A stretch of DNA of 63,809 nucleotides, the filler included, from Stramenopiles sp. TOSAG23-3 (lineage: Eukaryota): the NCBI GenBank assembly GCA_900128585.1. It is 11 parts of 11 records of this genome, joined end to end, with 100 filler letters (N's around TTAATTAATTAA, not from the genome) between each part and the next. Parts side by side here need not be neighbours in the genome. Positions count along the whole stretch, not along the records: positions 27,393 to 34,135 come from LT643263.1; 10 more parts are not named here. The stretch is one strand, 5' to 3'. Position numbers and translations under genes: made by a program. Of the stretch, positions 10,739-47,896 are shown in pieces; within the stretch, counting starts at the first letter, position 1; each line of letters opens with the position of its first letter. The notes under the pieces were generated by a model. It was not told where the DNA came from, made no database searches, and was given only the letters and a program-made list of their open reading frames with translations.

Positions 10739-11206
10739 ATTTTCCTATACCCTCGCACGGATGGCCAGGTCAAGTCGTTCCTTCTTCTTATTCTCTCTCT
10801 CTCTTGTGCGTTGCACCGGGGCCAGGCCTCACTCAGGTCGTTCGTTGCAGGACGAAGGACGGACTATGAAACACAAACAGTCCAAAACAGAACACAAAAT
10901 GGAACTAATGTTATATTGTCAATATCTCTTTCTATCTCTTGTCTCTTCTACATACATACACATTCTTTCTTCACATTCTTTCTTCCTAGATAGATAGACA
11001 TTACATATCTTTCTCTTTCCTTTCTTCATTCTTCATATTAAATACTAATAATTTTTAAAAATGACAGACAGTGTACTACAGTAGTAGACATTAAATTATT
11101 ATTATTATTATATTCATTCACTCTTCATCATCTTCTCTCGAACCAGTACTACTACAGCACTACAGCCTGTATAATAAAACTAAAAAAATTAAAATGATCT
11201 CCCTCT

Positions 11207-11278
<72 letters not shown>

Positions 11279-11329
11279 TCNNNNNNNNNNNNNNNNNNNN
11301 NNNNNNNNNNNNNNNNNNNNNNNNNNNNT

Positions 11330-11386
<57 letters not shown>

Positions 11387-12095
11387 TTTCTTCTTTCTTC
11401 TTTCTTCCTGATGATTGACCGAGTGTGAGTGACCGCCTTTAAAATAAAATTAAACCTTCAATTCAAATCATCCAATATACTATATACTATAAACTATAAT
11501 TAAATACATTTTTAAAAATTAAATAGGAAGAAAAGGAAGGAAGAAAAGGAAGAAGGAAGGATGACTCACCGATTTATTAGTACATAAGTTTAAGTATACT
11601 AACTAATTAAATATTATAATTTTAAATAGAATACAATAATAAATATATTACATTTGGATTAATATTAATAGCTCAATATGTACTTTTGTTTTATTATTCC
11701 TTATTTATTATATTTATATACTATTCCTATTTAAATATGTACCAGCAGCCACATTTCGAAGAAGGATGAATAATATAATACTGGAATAATTATTACGAGT
11801 ATTATTTGCAGGGTCATTCTTTCTTCTTCTTCTTCTTCTTCGCACCGGCGCCGCAGCCCGTTGGCACATGTTTGTTTGCATTTCTTATTTGCTCATACAT
11901 TTTAATATTATGCGTAAAAAAAAAGTACTGACATATAAACTGAAAGTACAAAGACACATGAATGCACAGGTATTTCAAAGTCAAAGTCGCTCACCACTCT
12001 AAAAGGGTATTTATCAGTCGTACCTGTTGCCGACTGACCGATACGGCAATATACAAACGTTTTCGCACGACGAAACGATCGACCGAGCGACCACC

Positions 12096-27396: not shown

Positions 27397-29643
27397 ATGT
27401 CGAAGGATCCCCCGGCAGCCGACACGGCAGCCGACGTTGCCGTGCCCGAAGCGGAGGAAAAGGTTGCCGACAATGCCGAGAACGATTGGGGCGATTTTAA
27501 TTCAGAGGAAACCCCAGCCGCGCCAACAGGTGAAGAAGATAGTGCTACCAGTGCGGCGGGCGACGGCGCTTGGGGTGATTTCAGCACAGAGGAAGTTCCT
27601 GCGCCTGCACCAGTTGAAACGGGAGCAGGGGGCAACGAAAATGGGGGCGACGCTTGGGGCGACTTCAACACAACGTCAATGGAAGACGCTTCGCCCAATG
27701 AAGCGGAGGATGCGGATTGGGGTAATTTTGAATCGACGGAGGGTGGTAACAAGGAGCCGAACGGGGGGGCTGGGGAAGTTAGCGGAGGCGAAGAAGAATT
27801 TGAGTTTGGCGATGATGATTTTCAAAATTCAAACGAAAGTCTGGAGGTGGAAGAAGGGGGCGACGGCGAAGACGACGACTGGGGAAATTTTGCAGAGAGC
27901 GAATCGTTTTCACCGGTGGAAGTTTCGCCTAAAATTCAAACTATTCTAACGCTCGAGGAATCCAAGTTTCACGAATTGACTACGTCTGTGTTTGGGAAAG
28001 GATTTGATAAAATTTCTAGCGAAAGCGGGTCGAAAGATACAGAGGTATCGGAGGCCATGTCCTCACAATTTTTGATCGACCTGTTGAGGGCGGGGCAAGG
28101 TCGGTCCAGCTCCGGATTGCTGTTTTGGGGACCGTCCAAATGCTTATCTTGCGGATGTTTGCTTCGGTTCATGTCGAAAAATTGTATAGTGTGCGGAAAG
28201 TCGACGGGAATGCTGGATTGGAAAGGCCGTGGTAAAGTAGGATCTATTGTTGAGAATAGGTTGCGCTCTGCGCTGCGTCTGCCCAAAGGCTCAAAACTCC
28301 AGCAAGACGAAGAAGACGCGTCTAAATTGTCCAAGTTTTCACCAAGCTTGACGCCCCGAAAAAGTGTCGAGAGCAGCCCGAGCGGGAACGGCCCAATGCC
28401 AAGTTTGAACATAAATGACAACGACGACGAGGAAGGCGCCAGCCTGTTCAATCTTAGCGAAACCAGTGTAGTAAATTCGAACGTCAATAGCGCACAGTCG
28501 GATCTATTTTCTGCATTTCAAAGCGCGCCGTCTCCCGTTCGAGGTGGCAGTGGCAGGGGCCCGTCAAACGACGTCTTTAGCACTTTTATCGGCATGGAAC
28601 CTGCCAACCCCACCGCTAACAACGACTCGAATGTGGATTTATTAAGCCAAACGCTGGCAGACTTTGGAATAAGCGCACCCACCAATTCGGCTGAGAACAA
28701 AGCGATGGATGCAGGCAAGGGCATCTTGGCTACCGAGGGGAATTCCCCAGTTCCAAATGCAATTGAAAAGGGCGGTGAGATGGGCAAGGCTTCTATGGCG
28801 CCCCAGGAAAGCGCATTAGATAGCGTTTTGAAGGTTCTCTCGTCACACGCAGAGTCAAACAAAAAGTCGAGAAGAACGAATGGTGATAGAAACGAACTGC
28901 CGCCCGAAGTTCAAAAGCTGATAGACGAATTAGTCGTACCAAACTACATGTTGTCGAACGTTCTCGCCCTCCCGATGCAGGCGACAGAGGAAAAAAACGA
29001 CGTTTTTGATGGCATTGATGTGCCGGCAAGCCCACCGGTACCAGAAGTTGCTCCCACGGAGCCCTTGGCTGTTTTGACTACGGCAAGTGCCTCGGACACA
29101 AAATTTACGGAGGGAAGTGCGAATGGTTTAATAGACAATAAGGTAGAGCAGCCGTCGTTACAAAGTCTTGGCGCACAGGTTTTAGCAGAACCAGCTGAAA
29201 AATCGCTCCTGCCTTCTTTCGGCGAACCTGTTGCGGATGAAGCGGAAAGTGTAGGTATGGCGAACCCAGAAGATACTGCAACTATCACAGTAGTCAAAGA
29301 ACATTTCCCCTCAGCATCTTTAGACGCGGGCAACGGCCGCACAGAACCCGTAGTTTCTGCAGAAGAAGTGCCAGGCGATGATTGGGGCGACTTTAACGAT
29401 TCGCCGGCAGGGGAAGAGGAACAGGGAAGCGGGGAGCCTGTTGCTACGGCGGAGTCCCCCGCCGCTGATCTTACAGAGTTCGGCGCGGGCGAAAAGGCTG
29501 GGGGGGCAGCTCGTGTTGATGTGGAGAACAGCTGTGGTGATTTTAGCACGGGAGAAGAGCCTGTTTTCGAACCGACCGAATCGCCCAAGGAAGAAGACAC
29601 TGCGACCAATGAAGCCGACGACGATTGGGGAGATTTTCAGTGA
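27397..29643 (+). CDS. Aftiphilin/gamma-synergin-like AP-1 accessory protein
   Basis: Seven acidic WG[D/N]F gamma-ear-binding motifs; CxxC-x10-CxxC; LIDELVVPNYMLSNVLALP resembles the aftiphilin/synergin C-terminal LPDLSFM..VLMFP motif; ATG is 4 nt from the contig start, so the N-terminus may be incomplete. Confidence 0.65.
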   Translation: MSKDPPAADTAADVAVPEAEEKVADNAENDWGDFNSEETPAAPTGEEDSATSAAGDGAWGDFSTEEVPAPAPVETGAGGNENGGDAWGDFNTTSMEDASPNEAEDADWGNFESTEGGNKEPNGGAGEVSGGEEEFEFGDDDFQNSNESLEVEEGGDGEDDDWGNFAESESFSPVEVSPKIQTILTLEESKFHELTTSVFGKGFDKISSESGSKDTEVSEAMSSQFLIDLLRAGQGRSSSGLLFWGPSKCLSCGCLLRFMSKNCIVCGKSTGMLDWKGRGKVGSIVENRLRSALRLPKGSKLQQDEEDASKLSKFSPSLTPRKSVESSPSGNGPMPSLNINDNDDEEGASLFNLSETSVVNSNVNSAQSDLFSAFQSAPSPVRGGSGRGPSNDVFSTFIGMEPANPTANNDSNVDLLSQTLADFGISAPTNSAENKAMDAGKGILATEGNSPVPNAIEKGGEMGKASMAPQESALDSVLKVLSSHAESNKKSRRTNGDRNELPPEVQKLIDELVVPNYMLSNVLALPMQATEEKNDVFDGIDVPASPPVPEVAPTEPLAVLTTASASDTKFTEGSANGLIDNKVEQPSLQSLGAQVLAEPAEKSLLPSFGEPVADEAESVGMANPEDTATITVVKEHFPSASLDAGNGRTEPVVSAEEVPGDDWGDFNDSPAGEEEQGSGEPVATAESPAADLTEFGAGEKAGGAARVDVENSCGDFSTGEEPVFEPTESPKEEDTATNEADDDWGDFQ

Positions 29644-29830
29644 ACTGTGAAGCAAAGATAAAACACTGTGGGGAGAAATTTGCGAAATCTTAATATTTAT
29701 TTCTACGTTTAAAATGAGAGTCTTAAAACATACTATATAATTTGGTTTTTTTTTATTTCTACGTCGTCGTATTATACTTCACGCATGTACACTCTTGTAT
29801 AAACGTTTTTGTGCATGCATCTTTTCATTG

Positions 29831-29900
29831 CTCGCTTTTCATCAGGTGCAAGTTGCAGTTCCATTAATTTTGTTTTTCTACAACACACCATCATCCCGAG
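29831..29900 (-). promoter_or_regulatory. Eukaryotic SECIS element in the 3' UTR of the deiodinase-like gene
   Basis: Minus strand CUCG-GG-AUGAU-GGUGUGUUGUAG-AAAAACAAAAUUAAUGGAA-CUGCAACUUGCACC-UGAU-GAAAAG-CGAG: AUGA/GA core, 12-bp helix II with a UU bulge, A-rich apical loop, short helix I. Confidence 0.85.
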
Positions 29901-29945
29901 AGCTTTTCAAGACGGGGGGAAAATACATTCGCGCCATCGCTAACT

Positions 29946-30593
29946 TTACGCGTCGATGTTTTGAGACAACCACGTGTCCACCTCTTCTGGCAAATACCCA
30001 TCTGGCCCAAGGTCGCCTTTGTAAGCAACTGTTTTGTCTTTTCCAATAACGTACAACCTTTCGGGCCAGCTGGCAAACGCCTGTTGTGCATCATTGGCCA
30101 TGCTATCCACAACAACTTCCATGTCACCGTGCAACCGCGTGGCAAATTTCGAGCAAATTTCGAAGCGATCTTCGATAGTTTTCGGTTGTTCAAAGCACAC
30201 ATCGGTATACAATTTCCATTCATCTGAAGCATGCGCTTCTGATATATATACTGCCAGAAAATCGACCTTTGAACGAAACTTCTCATAGATGCCAGTCAAC
30301 ACCCTGCTCTTTTTTCTCCACGGGCGTCAGCTGAAACTTCCAAAAGTCAAGACTAAAGGGCGCCCCTCGTTGGAGTATGTAGTAAGGGAAACCCTCTCTT
30401 TTTTGGCATTATATACCGAAACCGTCGGCATTTCGTCGCCTACTTTTAAGTCTCCTTCCGTTCGAATATCGTATTTGGCCAGAACCTTCTCCGAGAACGG
30501 CCCACTTTCTAGGTTAGCAACGTCCTCCACGTAATCATCCTTTTCAAAAAGTAAGTTGAATTTTCCTTTCGCCTCTTCGAAAGAGGCGGCCAT
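29946..30593 (-). CDS. DIO: Iodothyronine deiodinase-like selenoprotein (215 aa, Sec at UGA 30327-30329)
   Basis: ORFs 30327-30593 and 29946-30302 are in frame: RPLVLTFGSFS-U-RPW...FLAVYISEAHASDEW...VVDSMANDA...FASWPERLYVI...YKGDLGPDGY; SECIS downstream. Confidence 0.92.
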
Positions 30594-31148
30594 TATATTC
30601 GTATTATTATCCCCCTCCTCAAAGAATTATACAAAAGTAGAAAAACGGGCTGCTTGTTCTGAAAATCCTCTTATATTAACTGCACGACTAGTCCATCATA
30701 TTCACCAGTTTCACATTTGATTTTTGCAAACCATTTCATTAATAAAAGGAGTGAGAGTAATCTAAACAGTAGTAGTATTTTTGCCATCAAGAATTCTGTA
30801 GGGGGGATGGTTGAAGAAGGAAGAAGAAGAAGAAGAAAGAAAGAAGCTTCTTCTTCTTCCCCACTTTTCTTCCTGCCGGCATTTTTTTGGTGCTTACGCA
30901 ATACTATCTTCCTACTAAAATTACATAACTAATAAATTATTAATACTATTTTTTAATTATATTCAAATAGTTATTTTATCTATACAACGAATTCAATTAT
31001 TCAAAAAAAGAAGAAAAATTTCATGATTTTAAACATTAGGCATCATTCCTTAATCAAATAAACCAAGAGGAGTCTCTGATTTTATTACAGTAAGTGGTGG
31101 GCAGGCAAGAATACCCAAAGAGATCATAGAAGCAGTTCTCCCTCCTAA

Positions 31149-37145: not shown

Positions 37146-40100
37146 TTAGAAATCCAACGAAGTCAACCTGCCCTGGTTTCTGCTGGAACCTTCTTTTCCG
37201 CCATGGTCCCTTTCTTCCGTAAACAGATCCTCCATTGCATCAAGGATACCCTGGCTTTCCACGCAATTTTCTAGTGCTAAATGGCGTGAGAAGTAAATGG
37301 GACAGTCAATCGATGAGCATGCAATTCCATGGTCCGGACGCCCATGCCCCTGGCAATTCAGGCAGGTATGGATTGCCTCCGCCCTCTTTCTCTCGCACCT
37401 GGTGACTTTCACTTCAACGTGAAACCGAGCCACAGGCTTGTTGCTAGCACAGGAACTGCACAGAAAATGTTTGCTCGCCCCAACTTCGCCGCAAAGAAAA
37501 CAGTGAGTACTCTGGAAAAACTGGGTGATCAATTTTCCCGAAGAGTTTTTTTCTTTCGCGAAAGCACCCGCATTACGGTGCCGAAATACTGGACGGGGCA
37601 TTGTGTTGTACCACGAGTGGACATCCCAATCGTTCGCCAATTTGAACATCCTATCCAAGACCTGCAGAATCTGCCGAGCATAAAATGCAAGGTTCACACG
37701 AATAGAGTAATCGTTAGCAACGCGTTCTGGGGCCACTGCAAGATCAGCTATTTTGTGCTTGTTGCTTAAGGACGTGCCACAGCAGATGACATACGGTATA
37801 AACTCCCGGTTGATCGGTCGCGCCATGGGATCTGAACGCATCTTGGTCATGGCCACAACCATATGGGGGGGGAGAACTTTATAGTTTTCCCTCACTTTTC
37901 TAAAAAATATGAAACGAGACAATGGAAGGTCGCCCCGAAGCAGCCTTTGCATCGAGGCAAGAACATTCTTTCGAAGGCGCTCTTGGGCTCGGTTGGCATA
38001 GTTCTTACCACCCTGCTTTGTCTTGAACAGAACCAGCAGTGCCTCGCGAAGGGTATCGGCAACTACTGGACATTGGTCGCTCCGCATGGTCTCAATGCCT
38101 TTGTCATCCAGTTTCGGTTTATCTCCGGGCGACTCGTACATCCAACCAACGTATCTTTTTTTTGTTTGTAATACACATGGAAGGTACACTTTCTCTAGTT
38201 TCAGCAGCATTGGCTGAAGATTGGTTTCAGACACGCACTTGCTTATTCTGGATCCCACTTCGAAGGCCTTCTCGACTGAGATCCCCTCTTTCATCTGTAC
38301 AAACAGGCTATCCGTGTCGCCATACACAACTCTATTAACGTGGTTAGCGAATTCCCCAGGCTTTTCTTCGACCATTTGGATTGCTTTGAATAGCCGGAAT
38401 CTTCCTGTGATGACGATTGCATCCGCAATGTCGCTGCAGGGCATACGACCACTGAAAGAAGCGGACGTGTAACCATACGTGACGTTAGATATCATCTTTA
38501 AGGCATACTGCCTTGCATCCAGGATTCTTGCAAGGATTTTCTCCCCTTTGGACTTTGCAGTCTTGAGCTCTTTTTTCACCATAATGCGGGTGTTCAGAAG
38601 CTCTTCCAACATATCGGGCAGTATCCCGCGCCGATTTCTGGAAGAAACAAACATGACGCCGTTGCGTGCCATATGTGATTTGGGGTCATTAACGAAATCT
38701 CTCAGACCGTTCTCAACTGGAGGCTCGTAGAACCGCTTCGCTCCGAGGCGCTTTGAGACTTTTCCGTCTCCCCCCATTCGCCCGAGGCAAGTAGAATAGC
38801 ACATATTGTACGCGATCATCAAGCTAGGGTACAAAGACTGGAAGTCGAGGACCACAACGGGGGTTTCCTCATAAAACTTGCTTTCTGGCTCGAGCGTTAG
38901 CGCTTGCTCCTCTAAGGCCCGCTGGGATGCAACGTCGGATTTGCTAGGGGAATACAGCACGTAATTCTTGGGCTTGGTGATTCTTAGCATGACGCTCTCC
39001 ACTCTAAATTGTGAACCGCGCCACAATACGCTGTAGAAATCAATTCCAATCAGGCGCGCCATCTCGCTCGTTCGTCCGATAAGATCAAGTTTGTACATTA
39101 TGTCGAGGTATACGTTTATCTTCCTAGCAATATGCCGAATAGTTCGGGAGCGAAGGTGGTGCCTTCTAAACCACCGAACAAGAACTAAGTGGTCGTGCCG
39201 TGGTAGCCTCGTACGAAGCAAGTGCCATGCCACATTTTCAATGGAATAACCTTTTAGCTTGATCGTGGGCTCTTTGTGCATTAAACGCCACATGCTTAGT
39301 GTTATCCTCCCAATGATGAATATGCCAGCGTTTGGGTCTTTCCCGGTCATATTTAATTCATGGCGATGGTCGGTACGGGACATAGGAGTACGAGAAAAGT
39401 CACGCTCCAATTTGATGCCCAGGGCTCTCCCCCTCGCCAACAAATAGCCCCACGAGTACCTTTCGATGTCCCACCCGATAAGAATATCTGGGTCCACGGC
39501 ATGAACTAAGTCCACCGCGCCCATAAGCAGTTCCCTTTCATTGCTTACGATTGTAACATCGAGGCGCTTTGAGTTCTTCCCCGTGCGTTTCGTTGGTGGG
39601 TATATTCCAAGACCGCCTAGGTTAATGGAAGACTTTAAATTGTCGCCGGCTACGTTCTCGCCGACTACAATAATGCCCTGTCTACGGGTTCCGTAGCTGG
39701 CTCCTGGTACCCCACGGCCGTTGTCGCATTCAACAGTGTATACAATCATAACGACTTTGTCCTTTGAAGGATCAGGCAGTCTTCTATCCTCCCGCAGCGA
39801 TATTGCAAACGTTTCTAACGCCAACCACGACATTTGCTGCGGTCCGCTGTCTAAGCTAAATTCAGATTTTTCAGACGTTAACGAAGGGTTCTGTTGAACC
39901 AAATTCATCCGGTGACCGACACTGCTACTTTGAGAGCTAACGCCACTATCCGGCGAAGGCAAGTTTGACACGTGTTTTGTTTTGTGCCTCAACTTTCTGG
40001 ATTTATCTCCATTGATTAATACACTGGCAGTCGGGGGAATCCTATTTAGCGTCCATACTTGCACGTCCCTAGGGGCAGAAACTTCCAATAGGAACAAATC

Positions 40101-40971
40101 AGTGTTGCCCTTCACTTCTGCGACAATTTGCTTTGCAATAGAAATTTCCACGGGCGTTTCCGCATTTGGGGAAACGTGCTCGAGTTCTTGGGAATAAGAA
40201 TCACTTCTTTCTATCGAAATTGGTGCCGGGGGGAATCTTTGCGACTGCACAATTTTTCTGTTTTGGGAAACCGGTGGTCTTCTCGAGGGGCTGAACATGT
40301 CCATCATTGCCCCCATGGTCGGAATTGTTTTCTTGTCCCCGCGTATGTGTCCCTCCCTTTTTGTCTTGTACGTTCCCATGTTGCTGGGGAAATTAGTCAA
40401 TATCGACCCAGCCCCAAAGGTTGGTACAGGGGGCATTTTGATTGACACTTTTGCAGTCCCTGCAGCCCGATGGTTGTCGACTGCAGTGGCAGGAGAGTCA
40501 TACTCTCGAGGCCGCTTTTTGCGCAATTTTATGGGCGAGGGAGTAAAAATTTGTACATTGTCATTGCTACTGCTAGAACTACCGCGTTCGACTCTGTAGG
40601 CAGGCGCTATGCTTGGGGGACTAGGAGTGTAAATGGTCCCTTCTAAAAGCTGTGTGCCTGACATGCTCTGCGGGGAAACCATGGGATCAGCAAAAATGTT
40701 GTTTGTAGGTCTGGGCACATCATCTTCGCCGATTTCATCAAAACTCCCACGAACACTTCCAGTTTGGGTTATTTCGCTCCTGTACTTCTGGAAAATTTCT
40801 TCCATTTCCAAATCTGGGTCTATTATTCTCCCATCAGGCCCGACAATGGGTTCATCGTCAGATGCCTGTTGTTCCTCTAGCTCTTCATCTCGAATCTGTT
40901 GCATTTGGCTCAGCATAAAAAAACGCTCTTCTTTTCTATCTTCAAGCTGTACTGCTTTAGCAAACACTTCT
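37146..40971 (-). CDS. REV3: DNA polymerase zeta catalytic subunit, 5'-truncated
   Basis: VLWRGSQFRVESVMLR, LDFQSLYPSLMIAYNMCYST, RQYALKMISNVTYGYTSASFSGRMPC, YGDTDSLF, KKRYVG, C-terminal CysA/CysB clusters. Confidence 0.95.
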
Positions 40972-42415: not shown

Positions 42416-42850
42416 ATATTGGACACTCAAGAAATTGCCGAGACGCCGGCTAGTGGGGATATTTGGCTCTGCGGCTTTTGAGATGTTTGGCAAAGAGTGT
42501 TGAAGCCTCGGTGGTTATTTTGTAGTTTGTTTAAAACAAAGTAATCACCTGATACAAAAACACTCTAATAATACTTCTTAAGACGTATTTTATTTTACGT
42601 ATTAATCATATATTGGTATCATACAAAGTAACATATTATCTAAGTCAAGATATCATACTATATATTTTGGTTTTTCATTAGTTTTTTATCTTAAGTCAAG
42701 ACAAAGCGACACGGGTATAAATTTGATTAGTAAAACCACAAAGAGCAGCAACAAGTTCGCAGTACATCTCATGAAGGAACGTAAACCTTAAATGGACAAA
42801 GGCCCTCCTCTTTCAAAACGTGCGACCGTGGTTCGCTTTGCGAACCTTTG

Positions 42851-47506: not shown

Positions 47507-47896
47507 ATCGATGAAAGGCGCATTACTGGTCTGGTGTACCAAAACAAGCGTACGATTAGAGAGTGTTGGGGTATTGACCCGTACGATGTTCTAAAAAATA
47601 TAAGAGTTTTTAAATTCTTATAAAGGTCTCGTAAACTTGGTAAATTAATTTAAACACAACATTTTCTTCTTTACTTATCAGAGAATTCCGGAGATTGACT
47701 TTCATAATTTTTAAAAACAAAAACAAATTATATATAGTATGTTTTAAGTCAAAAAAGAAAAGAAAAAAGAAGGTAAAACCGTTCAAGAACCCAAACNNNN
47801 NNNNNNNNNNNNNNNNNNNNNNNNNNNNNNNNNNNNNNNNTTAATTAATTAANNNNNNNNNNNNNNNNNNNNNNNNNNNNNNNNNNNNNNNNNNNN

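What the first reader, a model, noticed from the sequence alone, without database searches (positions are those of the whole stretch)
29831..30593. Hidden iodothyronine-deiodinase-like selenoprotein: in-frame UGA plus canonical SECIS
Seen: two ORF-track fragments are one reading frame interrupted by TGA (30327-30329) exactly at the deiodinase catalytic position (RPLVLTFGSFS-U-RPW versus vertebrate RPLVLNFGSCT-U-PPF). It continues into YISEAHASDEW and PERLYVI...YKG..GP.GY. About 50 nt after the TAA sits a SECIS: AUGA/UGA core, 12-bp helix II, A-rich loop. Known: eukaryotic UGA-Sec recoding needs such a 3' UTR SECIS, and deiodinase-like selenoproteins have been reported in some algae. Unusual here: no N-terminal TM anchor (apparently soluble), no Cys at U-2, and Arg/Trp in place of Pro/Phe after Sec. 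Inference: a soluble reductive dehalogenase for marine organo-iodine/bromine compounds in a protist without thyroid hormone.
Basis: partly seen in the sequence, partly recalled or inferred. Interest (0 to 1): 0.8.

Follow-up and report, generated by a model that had tools for sequence, protein, structure and literature searches.

The report
Hidden deiodinase-family selenoprotein gene
An uncultured marine protist carries a small gene of the thyroid-hormone-deiodinase enzyme family whose apparent stop codon most likely encodes selenocysteine, so gene finders cut it in two; genes of this kind are already known from algae, amoebae and bacteria.

Summary
On the minus strand, 30593..29946 is one 215-codon frame with a single in-frame TGA (30329..30327). 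It matches Pfam T4_deiodinase (E 9e-38). The TGA falls on the catalytic selenocysteine of mouse Dio3 and Dio2. The predicted fold matches those two structures best.

The TGA is not an error. An identical metagenome contig and an RNA-library contig carry it, and 80 of 80 related loci have TGA at this column. TGA also ends 12 of 30 long ORFs in the window, so it is an ordinary stop there.

A type I SECIS-shaped hairpin lies at 29903..29830, starting 42 nt after the TAA. Two distant protist orthologues have SECIS-shaped hairpins in their 3' UTRs with different helix sequences. Rfam's models do not detect any of them.

The selenocysteine machinery could not be checked because no genome is held.

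The "unusual" features are real: no membrane anchor, no Cys at U-2, and URPW after Sec. The proposed role as a dehalogenase of marine organohalogens is untested, and the thyronine-contacting residues are not conserved.

Deiodinase-like selenoproteins are already published for bacteria, Dictyostelium and algae. This is a new, unannotated member of a known kind, of modest interest.

The parts
29946..30593 (-). Coding sequence of the deiodinase-family selenoprotein: 215 codons plus the TAA stop, in a single exon.
   Evidence: Searches give the frame. Pfam PF00837 scores E 9.1e-38, 130.3 bits, over residues 34-212. Full-length orthologues are collinear: P0002 at 60% identity and P0004 at 49%.
30327..30329 (-). 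In-frame UGA, read as selenocysteine 89.
   Evidence: It aligns to the catalytic Sec (Cys in the crystal constructs) of Dio3 4tr3 and Dio2 9h48. TGA stands at this column in 80 of 80 loci. The RNA-library contig X18 record 7 (30096-30394) carries it unchanged.
29830..29903 (-). SECIS-shaped element (type I) in the 3' UTR.
   Evidence: The minimum-energy fold gives helix I, an internal loop, helix II and an A-rich loop. My descriptor hits it. Orthologues L002 and L003 carry analogous elements. No Rfam hit.
29891..29894 (-). AUGA, the 5' half of the SECIS core quartet.
   Evidence: Read. It lies in the internal loop of the fold.
29841..29844 (-). UGAU, the 3' half of the SECIS core (the GA of the tandem G.A pairs).
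29859..29877 (-). Apical loop of 19 nt that begins AAAAA (the conserved unpaired A's).
29784..29945 (-). Minimum extent of the 3' UTR that contigs from RNA libraries cover.
   Evidence: X15 covers 29784-29934, X19 covers 29794-29944 and X16 covers 29799-29949. These are three studies, each contig with 0 differences.
30594..30647 (-). Minimum 5' leader that an RNA-library contig covers.
   Evidence: X18 record 8 covers 30499-30647. No in-frame ATG lies further upstream, and the upstream in-frame stop is 28 codons before the ATG (read on L001).
29752..29757 (-). AAUAAA hexamer, a possible polyadenylation signal.
   Evidence: Seen by eye. Not tested.

Best explanation
What it is. This is a genuine, intron-less nuclear gene of an uncultured marine protist. 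It encodes a 215-aa member of the iodothyronine-deiodinase (Pfam PF00837) branch of the thioredoxin/peroxiredoxin-like fold. The protein probably lacks a membrane anchor.

Shown here:
- The UGA at 30329..30327 occupies the catalytic selenocysteine position.
- That UGA is conserved in relatives.
- A hairpin with the architecture of a type I SECIS lies in the 3' UTR at 29903..29830.

Inferred:
- The hairpin recruits the SBP2/eEFSec machinery, so the ribosome inserts Sec instead of stopping.
- Gene finders that read TGA as stop therefore split the gene into 88-aa and 118-aa pieces.

Chemistry, inferred from the family. The selenolate of U89 attacks an electrophilic atom of the substrate. In the animal enzymes this is an aryl iodine, which gives reductive dehalogenation. 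The conserved relay Ser86 / Ser88 / Tyr116 / Glu119 / His121 (Dio3 Ser167 / Thr169 / Tyr197 / Glu200 / His202) would assist. The oxidised selenium would then be reduced by a thiol. That thiol could be the Cys133 kept in most of this subfamily, or an external reductant, because the Dio3 cysteines 168 and 239 are absent.

Substrate. It is unknown and is probably not a thyronine, because the equivalents of Dio3 Arg275, Phe258 and His219 are Leu195, Pro177 and Pro137.
For: Family membership:
- PF00837 scores E 9.1e-38, 130.3 bits against a cut-off of 27.
- phmmer against PDB chains gives Dio3 4tr3 at E 4.5e-25 and Dio2 9h48 at E 3.2e-19, with the UGA on the catalytic residue.
- The AlphaFold model has pLDDT 86.9 and pTM 0.82.
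- Its best Foldseek matches are 9h48 (E 3.1e-16, TM 0.82) and 4tr3 (E 2.1e-15, TM 0.79). The next match is ResA at 6.5e-9.

The UGA is real and conserved:
- L001, an independent metagenome contig, is identical over residues 1-215.
- An RNA-library contig spans the UGA without change.
- 80 of 80 loci (3 protist, 77 bacterial) have TGA at this column.
- Among 119 database proteins that span the column, 86 have C (the query's substituted C included), 27 W, 4 S, 1 A and 1 a gap. W is taken here to be TGA read under code 4; that is my inference. This is the usual Sec/Cys pattern of a selenoprotein family.
- Protein conservation continues on both sides of the UGA: P0002 is 60% identical over 99% of the length.

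TGA is otherwise a stop in this organism. It ends 12 of 30 long non-overlapping ORFs, and read-through adds only 5-92 codons.

SECIS:
- The minimum-energy fold has SECIS architecture.
- The descriptor also finds one element in the sense 3' UTR of each protist orthologue. In L002 it lies 124 nt after the stop and is type I. In L003 it lies 53 nt after the stop and is type II with a GGGCG/CGCCC mini-stem.
- Helix sequences differ among the three while AUGA...GA and the A-run are kept.
- Background is 17 sites per 127,618 nt at >= 9 bp.

Uniqueness: 1 of 103 comparable TGA sites in the window has a domain across it.

Eukaryotic nuclear context: the neighbouring genes encode synaptobrevin/longin, ubiquitin, ChAPs and a family B DNA polymerase whose named relatives are DNA polymerase zeta.
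Against: - Rfam's covariance models reported no SECIS match at E <= 10. This held for the window and for L002 and L003.
- The L003 hairpin folds no better than shuffles: z -0.21, with 79 of 200 shuffles as good.
- With only three protist sequences, SECIS covariation cannot be tested statistically.
- No whole genome is held and the window has no tRNA gene. So tRNA-Sec, SPS2, PSTK, SepSecS, eEFSec and SBP2 are unverified.
- No close named relative exists from which to infer them. The best named hits to the polymerase are at most 49% identical.
- The RNA evidence is low-depth assembled contigs (depth 2-7) from environmental RNA libraries. These can contain DNA, and they show neither transcript ends nor translation.
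- Nothing shows Sec incorporation or any enzymatic activity.
- The dehalogenase chemistry is carried over from animal enzymes whose substrate-binding residues are not conserved here.
Confidence: 0.87

Rival explanations
1. It is a real selenoprotein with the same recoding mechanism, but it does not remove halogens. Instead it acts as a peroxiredoxin-like selenol peroxidase or general thiol/selenol oxidoreductase, as was proposed for the bacterial deiodinase-like proteins.
For: - The fold is Prx/ResA-like beyond the two Dio structures.
- Pfam AhpC-TSA matches at E 8.1e-06, 26.2 bits against a cut-off of 26, over residues 51-131.
- Ser86 at U-3 sits where the Prx Thr/Ser-x-x-Cys motif has its Thr/Ser. 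That motif is recalled, not taken from a call.
- The Dio3 thyronine contacts Arg275 and Phe258 and the relay residue His219 are replaced.
- The authors of PMC1088965 suggested a redox function for the bacterial homologues (passages read).
Against: - The Dio-specific insertion (loop D) and its edge residues E119, H121 and W126 are invariant across the whole subfamily. These residues distinguish deiodinases from peroxiredoxins (PMC11592359, passages read).
- The T4_deiodinase score is about 100 bits above the AhpC score.
Confidence: 0.35
2. The TGA is a true stop. The locus would then be a pseudogene, an assembly error, or two separate small genes of 88 aa and 118 aa, as public gene calls have it.
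For: Public collections hold the two pieces as separate unnamed proteins: P0197 (88 aa, on 42 contigs) and P0194 (118 aa, on 38 contigs). The 118-aa piece would have to start at GTG.
Against: - The TGA is identical in an independent metagenome contig and in an RNA-library contig.
- TGA stands at the same column in 80 of 80 loci.
- Neither half alone forms the thioredoxin fold; the domain match runs across the TGA.
- Both halves are conserved at 49-60% identity in distant orthologues.
Confidence: 0.03
3. The organism reads UGA as a sense codon generally (Trp or Cys), so no Sec or SECIS is involved.
For: Some gene callers produced full-length versions with W at this column: P0002, P0004, P0010 and P0012.
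Against: - TGA terminates 12 of 30 long ORFs in the window, with short, variable read-through extensions.
- Of 103 TGA sites with open flanks, only this one shows a domain across the TGA.
- No homologue is expected to place Trp at a catalytic Sec/Cys column, and 85 database homologues other than the query have Cys there.
Confidence: 0.02

Closest known systems
Vertebrate iodothyronine deiodinases DIO1-3 (structures: mouse Dio3 4tr3, mouse Dio2 9h48)
   Same: - Same Pfam family and same fold, with 32-34% identity in the structural alignment.
- Catalytic Sec encoded by UGA and a SECIS in the 3' UTR.
- Conserved FGS-x-[ST]-U motif.
- The Tyr/Glu/His/Trp edge of loop D is kept: Y116, E119, H121, W126.
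- The ERLY and GP.GY motifs are kept.
   Different: - No N-terminal membrane anchor.
- Phe instead of Cys at U-2 (Dio3 Cys168).
- Met158 in place of Cys239.
- Pro137 in place of His219.
- Pro177 in place of Phe258.
- Leu195 in place of the carboxylate clamp Arg275 (residue roles from PMC11592359 passages; the Cys239 role is recalled).
- URPW instead of UPPF after Sec.
- Activity on thyroid hormones is not expected and was not tested.
Bacterial deiodinase-like selenoproteins (Sargasso Sea selenoproteome, PMC1088965; reviewed in PMC13188914)
   Same: - 35-45% identity.
- TGA at the same column in 77 of 77 bacterial loci.
- Shared subfamily signatures DVC[YF].QPK and WPERLY.
- No Cys at U-2 in 75 of 77 loci.
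- In a quick unrooted tree the protist clade lies next to the bacterial clade, with SH-aLRT 80 and 92 and long branches.
   Different: - The bacterial genes carry an N-terminal hydrophobic segment (judged by eye).
- They have UPPF after Sec.
- They have a short G+C hairpin about 13 nt after the UGA inside the coding region, which is bacterial-SECIS-like. Covariation for that hairpin was not shown.
- The protist gene instead has a 3' UTR SECIS of eukaryotic shape.
Deiodinase-like selenoproteins of non-animal eukaryotes: Dictyostelium discoideum (PMC2375036) and the algal DIO family (PMC7539508)
   Same: Eukaryotic, non-thyroidal organisms with a Sec-containing PF00837 homologue, a 3' UTR SECIS and unknown function. 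The algal paper states that 80% of algal DIO members are Sec forms (passages read).
   Different: I could not compare sequences. The algal paper's supplement could not be read and no named algal or Dictyostelium sequence was among my hits. The Dictyostelium element is described as type II with a very long mini-stem, whereas the window's element is type I.
Peroxiredoxin / AhpC-TSA and ResA-type thiol-disulfide oxidoreductases
   Same: Thioredoxin-like fold with the nucleophile at the N-terminus of helix alpha-1. There is a borderline AhpC-TSA match.
   Different: - Only 12-19% identity.
- These proteins lack the Dio insertion (loop D) that the window protein keeps.
- The Pfam score favours T4_deiodinase by about 100 bits.

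Membership tests
Iodothyronine deiodinase family (Pfam PF00837, T4_deiodinase) | Profile match above the curated threshold over the catalytic domain. | tested here: met
   130.3 bits against a cut-off of 27, E 9.1e-38, profile positions 58-236 of 237.
Iodothyronine deiodinase family (Pfam PF00837, T4_deiodinase) | Thioredoxin/Prx-like fold with the Dio-specific insertion, closest in structure to solved deiodinases. | tested here: met
   The model has pLDDT 86.9. Its top two Foldseek matches are Dio2 9h48 and Dio3 4tr3 at E 1e-15 to 1e-16, seven orders of magnitude better than the next fold. The loop-D region aligns with one 1-residue gap and one 2-residue insertion.
Iodothyronine deiodinase family (Pfam PF00837, T4_deiodinase) | Sec (or Cys) nucleophile in FGS-x-[ST]-U at the start of helix alpha-1. 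| tested here: met
   FGSFS-U89 aligns to FGSCT-C57 of chain 4tr3_A, which is Sec170.
Iodothyronine deiodinase family (Pfam PF00837, T4_deiodinase) | Proton-relay and loop-D edge residues (Dio3 Ser167, Thr169, Tyr197, Glu200, His202, Trp207, His219). | tested here: inconclusive
   Six of seven are kept: S86, S88 (Thr to Ser), Y116, E119, H121 and W126. The His219 equivalent is Pro137. Residue roles come from PMC11592359 passages.
Vertebrate-type thyroid hormone deiodinase (DIO1-3 proper) | N-terminal transmembrane anchor. | tested here: not met
   The N-terminus MAASFEEAKGKFNLLFEKDDYVEDV... is acidic and has no hydrophobic stretch. This was judged by eye; no TM predictor was run. Orthologues P0002, L002 and L003 are alike.
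Vertebrate-type thyroid hormone deiodinase (DIO1-3 proper) | Thyronine-binding residues (Dio3 Arg275 clamp, Phe258) and the cysteines Cys168 and Cys239. | tested here: not met
   Their equivalents are Leu195, Pro177, Phe87 and Met158 (alignment, chain offset 113).
Vertebrate-type thyroid hormone deiodinase (DIO1-3 proper) | Reductive deiodination of iodothyronines. | not testable with these tools
   This needs an enzyme assay.
Eukaryotic selenoprotein gene (UGA-Sec recoding) | In-frame UGA aligned to Sec or Cys in homologues, with protein conservation on both sides. | tested here: met
   TGA in 80 of 80 loci. Among 119 database proteins spanning the column the counts are C 86, W 27, S 4, A 1 and gap 1. 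Orthologues are conserved over 98-99% of the length.
Eukaryotic selenoprotein gene (UGA-Sec recoding) | [quoted passage not shown] | tested here: inconclusive
   All listed features are present in the minimum-energy fold and under my own descriptor, also in orthologues L002 and L003. However, no Rfam model matched at E <= 10, and SECISearch3 is not available here.
Eukaryotic selenoprotein gene (UGA-Sec recoding) | Sec machinery in the same genome (tRNA-Sec, SPS2, PSTK, SepSecS, eEFSec, SBP2). | not testable with these tools
   No genome is held for this window. ARAGORN finds no tRNA in the window.
Eukaryotic selenoprotein gene (UGA-Sec recoding) | Selenium in the protein (75Se labelling or mass spectrometry). 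| not testable with these tools
   This needs an experiment.
Peroxiredoxin (Pfam PF00578, AhpC-TSA) | Profile match above threshold over the whole domain. | tested here: inconclusive
   26.2 bits against a cut-off of 26, covering only profile positions 1-81 of 124. The match lies under the far stronger PF00837 match.

The most novel reading that the evidence does not exclude
The anchor-less URPW proteins (the window, P0002, L002, L003 and relatives, all so far from marine environmental sequence) form a protist-specific lineage of the bacterial-type deiodinase-like selenoproteins. This lineage would have entered eukaryotes by gene transfer. To keep Sec, it would have had to exchange the in-frame bacterial SECIS for a eukaryotic 3' UTR SECIS. 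The protein would now act in the cytosol as a selenium-dependent dehalogenase of iodinated or brominated phenolic metabolites, with loop-D Cys133 as the resolving thiol.
Probability: 0.12. Interest if true: 0.6.

Novelty: new member of a known kind. Interest (0 to 1): 0.3.

Why it matters
The practical point is annotation. In public collections this gene exists only as two unnamed fragments of 88 and 118 aa. The locus is therefore a clear example of the systematic loss of selenoproteins from automated gene calls in protist and metagenome data.

The biological point is smaller. It adds an anchor-less clade from uncultured marine protists to a family whose function outside animals has been an open question since 2005-2007. 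That clade is known here only from environmental sequences.

The clade keeps the catalytic core of deiodinases but not the thyronine-binding residues. That makes it a reasonable candidate for asking what the ancestral substrate of deiodinases was. It does not make the question more testable than the already known bacterial, Dictyostelium or algal members do.

Tried and rejected
- Rfam search for SECIS. No SECIS model matched at E <= 10 in the window's 3' UTR or in L002 and L003. Only chance-level hits to unrelated families appeared (K10_TLS, mir-991, TCL6_1). I treat this as a sensitivity limit of those models, but it is a negative result.
- Whole-genome search for Sec machinery. No genome is held.
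- tRNA scan of the window. No tRNA gene was found.
- Earlier findings of this scan. Nothing on selenoproteins in this genome and no look-alike of the protein.
- Bacterial SECIS covariation.
  - RNAalifold on 24 bacterial loci predicted a different, weak structure.
  - My named 6-bp hairpin was paired in 72.2% of cells, no better than column shuffles (255 of 500 as high). The two registers of the hairpin do not share alignment columns.
  - The hairpin is therefore seen only in individual folds.
- Lineage assignment through the family B DNA polymerase. Only environmental sequences reach 61-70% identity, and named species are at most 49% identical. No lineage, and so no lineage-based inference about Sec use.
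- Supplement of the algal selenoproteome paper, to see which algae carry DIO. The file could not be read, so the claim that no identical clade is in print cannot be made.
- A second selenoprotein gene in the window. None of the other 102 TGA sites with open flanks has a domain across the TGA.
- RNA contigs.
  - They do not cover 30395-30498 in X18, and no single contig spans the whole mRNA. Gaps in contig cover are not evidence.
  - A poly(T) loose end at 29721 (X15) belongs to a contig that matches only 32 nt here, so it is not taken as this gene's poly(A) site.
- Tree. A quick search, unrooted, with many long branches and no vertebrate sequences included. I draw no conclusion on donor or direction of transfer.
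Full report
**The observation**

They share one frame. Reading TGA through joins them into a 215-codon frame, 30593..29946, with a single TGA at 30329..30327 and a TAA stop at 29948..29946.

The quoted motifs are present as described: RPLVLTFGSFS-U-RPW, YISEAHASDEW and WPERLYVI...YKGDLGPDGY. The coordinates in the finding (29831-30593) run from the 3' end of the putative SECIS to the start codon.

**What the protein is**

The read-through product matches Pfam T4_deiodinase (PF00837) at E 9.1e-38, 130.3 bits against a cut-off of 27, over residues 34-212. A far weaker AhpC-TSA match lies underneath it.

Against PDB sequences the best hits are mouse Dio3 (4tr3, E 4.5e-25) and mouse Dio2 (9h48, E 3.2e-19). 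In both alignments the UGA falls exactly on the catalytic Sec, which is Cys in the crystal constructs.

An AlphaFold model built on a 44-sequence alignment has mean pLDDT 86.9 and pTM 0.82. Foldseek against the PDB ranks Dio2 (E 3.1e-16, TM 0.82 on the target) and Dio3 (E 2.1e-15, TM 0.79) first. ResA-type and peroxiredoxin folds follow from E 6.5e-9 downward. Family membership is therefore secure by both sequence and fold.

**Is the TGA real, and is it a stop?**

- An independent metagenome contig (L001) encodes the identical protein with the same TGA.
- A 299-nt contig from an oligo-dT RNA library (X18) covers 30096-30394, across the TGA, with no difference.
- RNA-library contigs from three further studies cover 29784-29949, which is the 3' UTR with the hairpin. 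Others reach 30647 upstream of the ATG. These are low-depth assembled contigs, so they show presence, not transcript ends or translation.
- All 80 of the 80 related loci kept from the metagenome scan have TGA at this column. Three are protist-like (L001-L003) and 77 are bacterial-looking, with G+C of 0.52-0.72.
- In a library of cluster representatives the family has 2,526 members at E <= 1e-3.
- Among the 119 listed proteins that span the column, 86 have C (the query's substituted C included), 27 W, 4 S, 1 A and 1 a gap. I take the W rows to be TGA read under a code-4 gene call; that is inference. The result is the usual Sec/Cys column of a selenoprotein family.
- Many other database entries are fragments that end at the TGA (P0025, 88 aa, 99% identical) or begin just after it (P0003 and others of 118-127 aa). 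In public collections this very gene exists as two unnamed pieces.
- TGA is an ordinary stop in this organism. It ends 12 of 30 long non-overlapping ORFs of the window, and reading through adds only 5-92 codons.
- As a control, I took all 103 TGA sites in the window that have at least 40 open codons on both sides. Only this one has a Pfam domain running across the TGA.

**The SECIS**

From 42 nt after the stop the RNA folds, as its minimum-energy structure, into these parts:

| Part | Detail | Coordinates (minus strand) |
|---|---|---|
| Helix I | GCUC.C / G.GAGC | ends of 29903..29830 |
| Core, 5' half | AUGA, in the internal loop | 29894..29891 |
| Core, 3' half | UGAU, in the internal loop | 29844..29841 |
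| Helix II | 12 bp with a UU bulge | between the core and the apical loop |
| Apical loop | 19 nt, begins AAAAA | 29877..29859 |

The folding z-score is -2.30, and 4 of 200 shuffles fold as well. This is the architecture of a type I SECIS.

A simple descriptor of my own asks for [AG]UGA, a helix II with one bulge allowed, AA at the start of the loop, and GA on the 3' side. It found 4 sites with at least 10 bp in the 127,618 nt of both strands. A slightly wider version found 17 sites with at least 9 bp and 4 with at least 11 bp. A hit in a given 200-300-nt 3' UTR is therefore expected only a few times in a hundred.

The same descriptor finds one element in the sense 3' UTR of each of the two distant protist orthologues.
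- In L002 (49% identical protein) it lies 124 nt after the stop. Helix I is AAUAC/GUAUU and the loop is AAAAAAUGAAACA.
- In L003 (46% identical over the full-length alignment; 40% in the best tblastn segment; G+C 0.66) it lies 53 nt after the stop. It has an AAAA bulge and a GGGCG/CGCCC mini-stem, which is the type II form.

The helices differ in sequence among the three, while the AUGA...GA core and the A-run are kept.

Two results count against this reading. Rfam's models reported no SECIS match at E <= 10 for any of the three. The L003 hairpin is no more stable than shuffles, with z -0.21. Three sequences are too few for a covariation statistic.

**Comparison with relatives**

The bacterial loci share the subfamily signatures DVC[YF].QPK and WPERLY with the window protein, and they lack Cys at U-2 in 75 of 77 cases. 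They differ in three ways:
- They begin with a hydrophobic segment (judged by eye).
- They have UPPF after Sec.
- In individual folds they show a short G+C hairpin with a GGU-containing loop about 13 nt after the UGA, as a bacterial SECIS would. My covariation test of that hairpin was not conclusive.

The protist clade has instead a conserved acidic N-terminal extension of about 45 residues without any hydrophobic stretch, and URPW after Sec.

A quick unrooted tree puts the window, P0002, L002, L003, P0006 and P0008 on one side of a branch (SH-aLRT 80), next to the bacterial clade (92). An animal-like form with a membrane anchor and GSCT-U-PPF (P0010) lies apart. Long branches and the lack of a root forbid any statement on direction.

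**Residues and mechanism**

I numbered residues through the 4tr3 alignment with a chain offset of 113. That offset places Sec170, His202, Trp207, Phe258 and Arg275, all named in PMC11592359 (passages read), on C, H, W, F and R of the chain.

| Dio3 residue | Window residue | Kept? |
|---|---|---|
| Ser167 | S86 | yes |
| Thr169 | S88 | yes (Thr to Ser) |
| Sec170 | U89 | yes |
| Tyr197 | Y116 | yes |
| Glu200 | E119 | yes |
| His202 | H121 | yes |
| Trp207 | W126 | yes |
| Cys168 | F87 | no |
| His219 | P137 | no |
| Cys239 | M158 | no |
| Phe258 | P177 | no |
| Arg275 (carboxylate clamp) | L195 | no |

The role of Cys239 as a resolving cysteine is recalled, not read here.

So the catalytic core and the Dio-specific loop D are retained, while the thyronine contacts and the vertebrate cysteines are not. 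Cys133 in loop D is kept in most of the subfamily, including the bacteria, and is a candidate resolving thiol. That is inference.

The most likely chemistry is selenolate attack on an electrophile followed by thiol-dependent regeneration. I put the non-dehalogenase redox reading at about 0.35. Most of the remainder goes to a dehalogenation reaction on a non-thyronine substrate.

**Context**

The neighbours are unrelated eukaryotic housekeeping genes: phospholipase B, a ubiquitin-domain protein, a nucleoside deoxyribosyltransferase, an FMO-like oxidoreductase, TatD, a longin-synaptobrevin and a family B DNA polymerase whose named relatives are DNA polymerase zeta. No operon-like functional link is apparent.

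The organism has no close named relative. The best named polymerase hits are at most 49% identical. Earlier notes of this scan call it an uncultured marine protist.

No whole genome is held and the window has no tRNA gene.

**What is known and what is new**

- Bacterial deiodinase-like selenoproteins with bacterial SECIS elements were described in 2005 (PMC1088965, passages read) and are listed in a 2026 review (PMC13188914, passages read).
- A Dictyostelium deiodinase-like selenoprotein with a type II SECIS was described in 2007 (PMC2375036, passages read).
- DIO is one of 42 selenoprotein families catalogued in algae, 80% of its members being Sec forms (PMC7539508, passages read). The supplement that would list species and sequences could not be read.
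- My literature searches found no functional study of a non-animal member. This holds only for the library searched.

The gene is thus a new, so far unannotated member of a known kind. The anchor-less URPW clade may be a distinct subfamily, but I cannot show that it is undescribed.

**Verdict**

The selenoprotein reading is very likely (about 0.87). The specific dehalogenase function is not established. Interest is modest (0.3).

Noticed in passing
L003:446-505: In the G+C-rich protist orthologue the 60 nt that start at the UGA fold into a very stable hairpin (-42.6 kcal/mol). The window's own gene (-11.9) and L002 (-14.7) have nothing comparable. It could be a Sec-redefinition-type element or just a composition effect.
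   Followed up: no
L004-L080 (TGA positions listed): All 77 bacterial-looking metagenome loci, mostly from soil-type contigs, encode deiodinase-like proteins with TGA at the catalytic column. They also have an N-terminal hydrophobic segment and a short G+C hairpin with a GGU loop about 13 nt after the UGA. The hairpin occurs in two registers, and covariation was not demonstrable.
   Followed up: partly
L050:304-2058 and L072:301-2055: A continuous 585-codon frame joins an N-terminal region that looks like a Gfo/Idh/MocA-type oxidoreductase to a C-terminal deiodinase-like domain with GSCT-U-PPF. The oxidoreductase assignment is by eye, from the MSTSAPSPERTVRWGLVGCGDIAERR... start. The representative search also lists many 400-900-aa proteins with the domain at their C-terminal end.
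   Followed up: no
window 29722-29750; also 42654-42675 and 47731-47748: A short A/T-rich motif lies in the gap between the convergent genes 27397..29643 (+) and the selenoprotein gene (-). It recurs at two other intergenic places in the window. RNA-library contigs from other transcripts share 29708-29754, and one of them continues into poly(T).
   Followed up: partly
window 27397-29643 (+): A 748-aa acidic, low-complexity ORF with many W-G-[DN]-F repeats and a Cys-rich stretch (CLSCGCLLRF..CIVCG). It has no Pfam match at 1e-5. It is convergent with the selenoprotein gene, and its TGA stop lies about 140 nt from the furthest RNA-contig cover of the selenoprotein's 3' UTR.
   Followed up: no
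window 29946-30593; proteins P0197 and P0194: Public collections hold this gene only as two unnamed pieces: 88 aa on 42 contigs and 118 aa on 38 contigs. Orthologue clusters likewise consist mostly of 104-129-aa C-terminal fragments.
   Followed up: yes
window about 11.2 kb and about 27.34-27.39 kb: Runs of N show up as X in translations. One lies within a TTTCTT-type simple repeat near 11042-11425. The other lies just upstream of the ORF that starts at 27397.
   Followed up: no
window 37146-40916 (-): The ORF is only part of a DNA polymerase zeta gene. An identical environmental protein is 1,811 aa long (P0214). The gene therefore extends beyond this ORF, through introns or upstream exons.
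   Followed up: no
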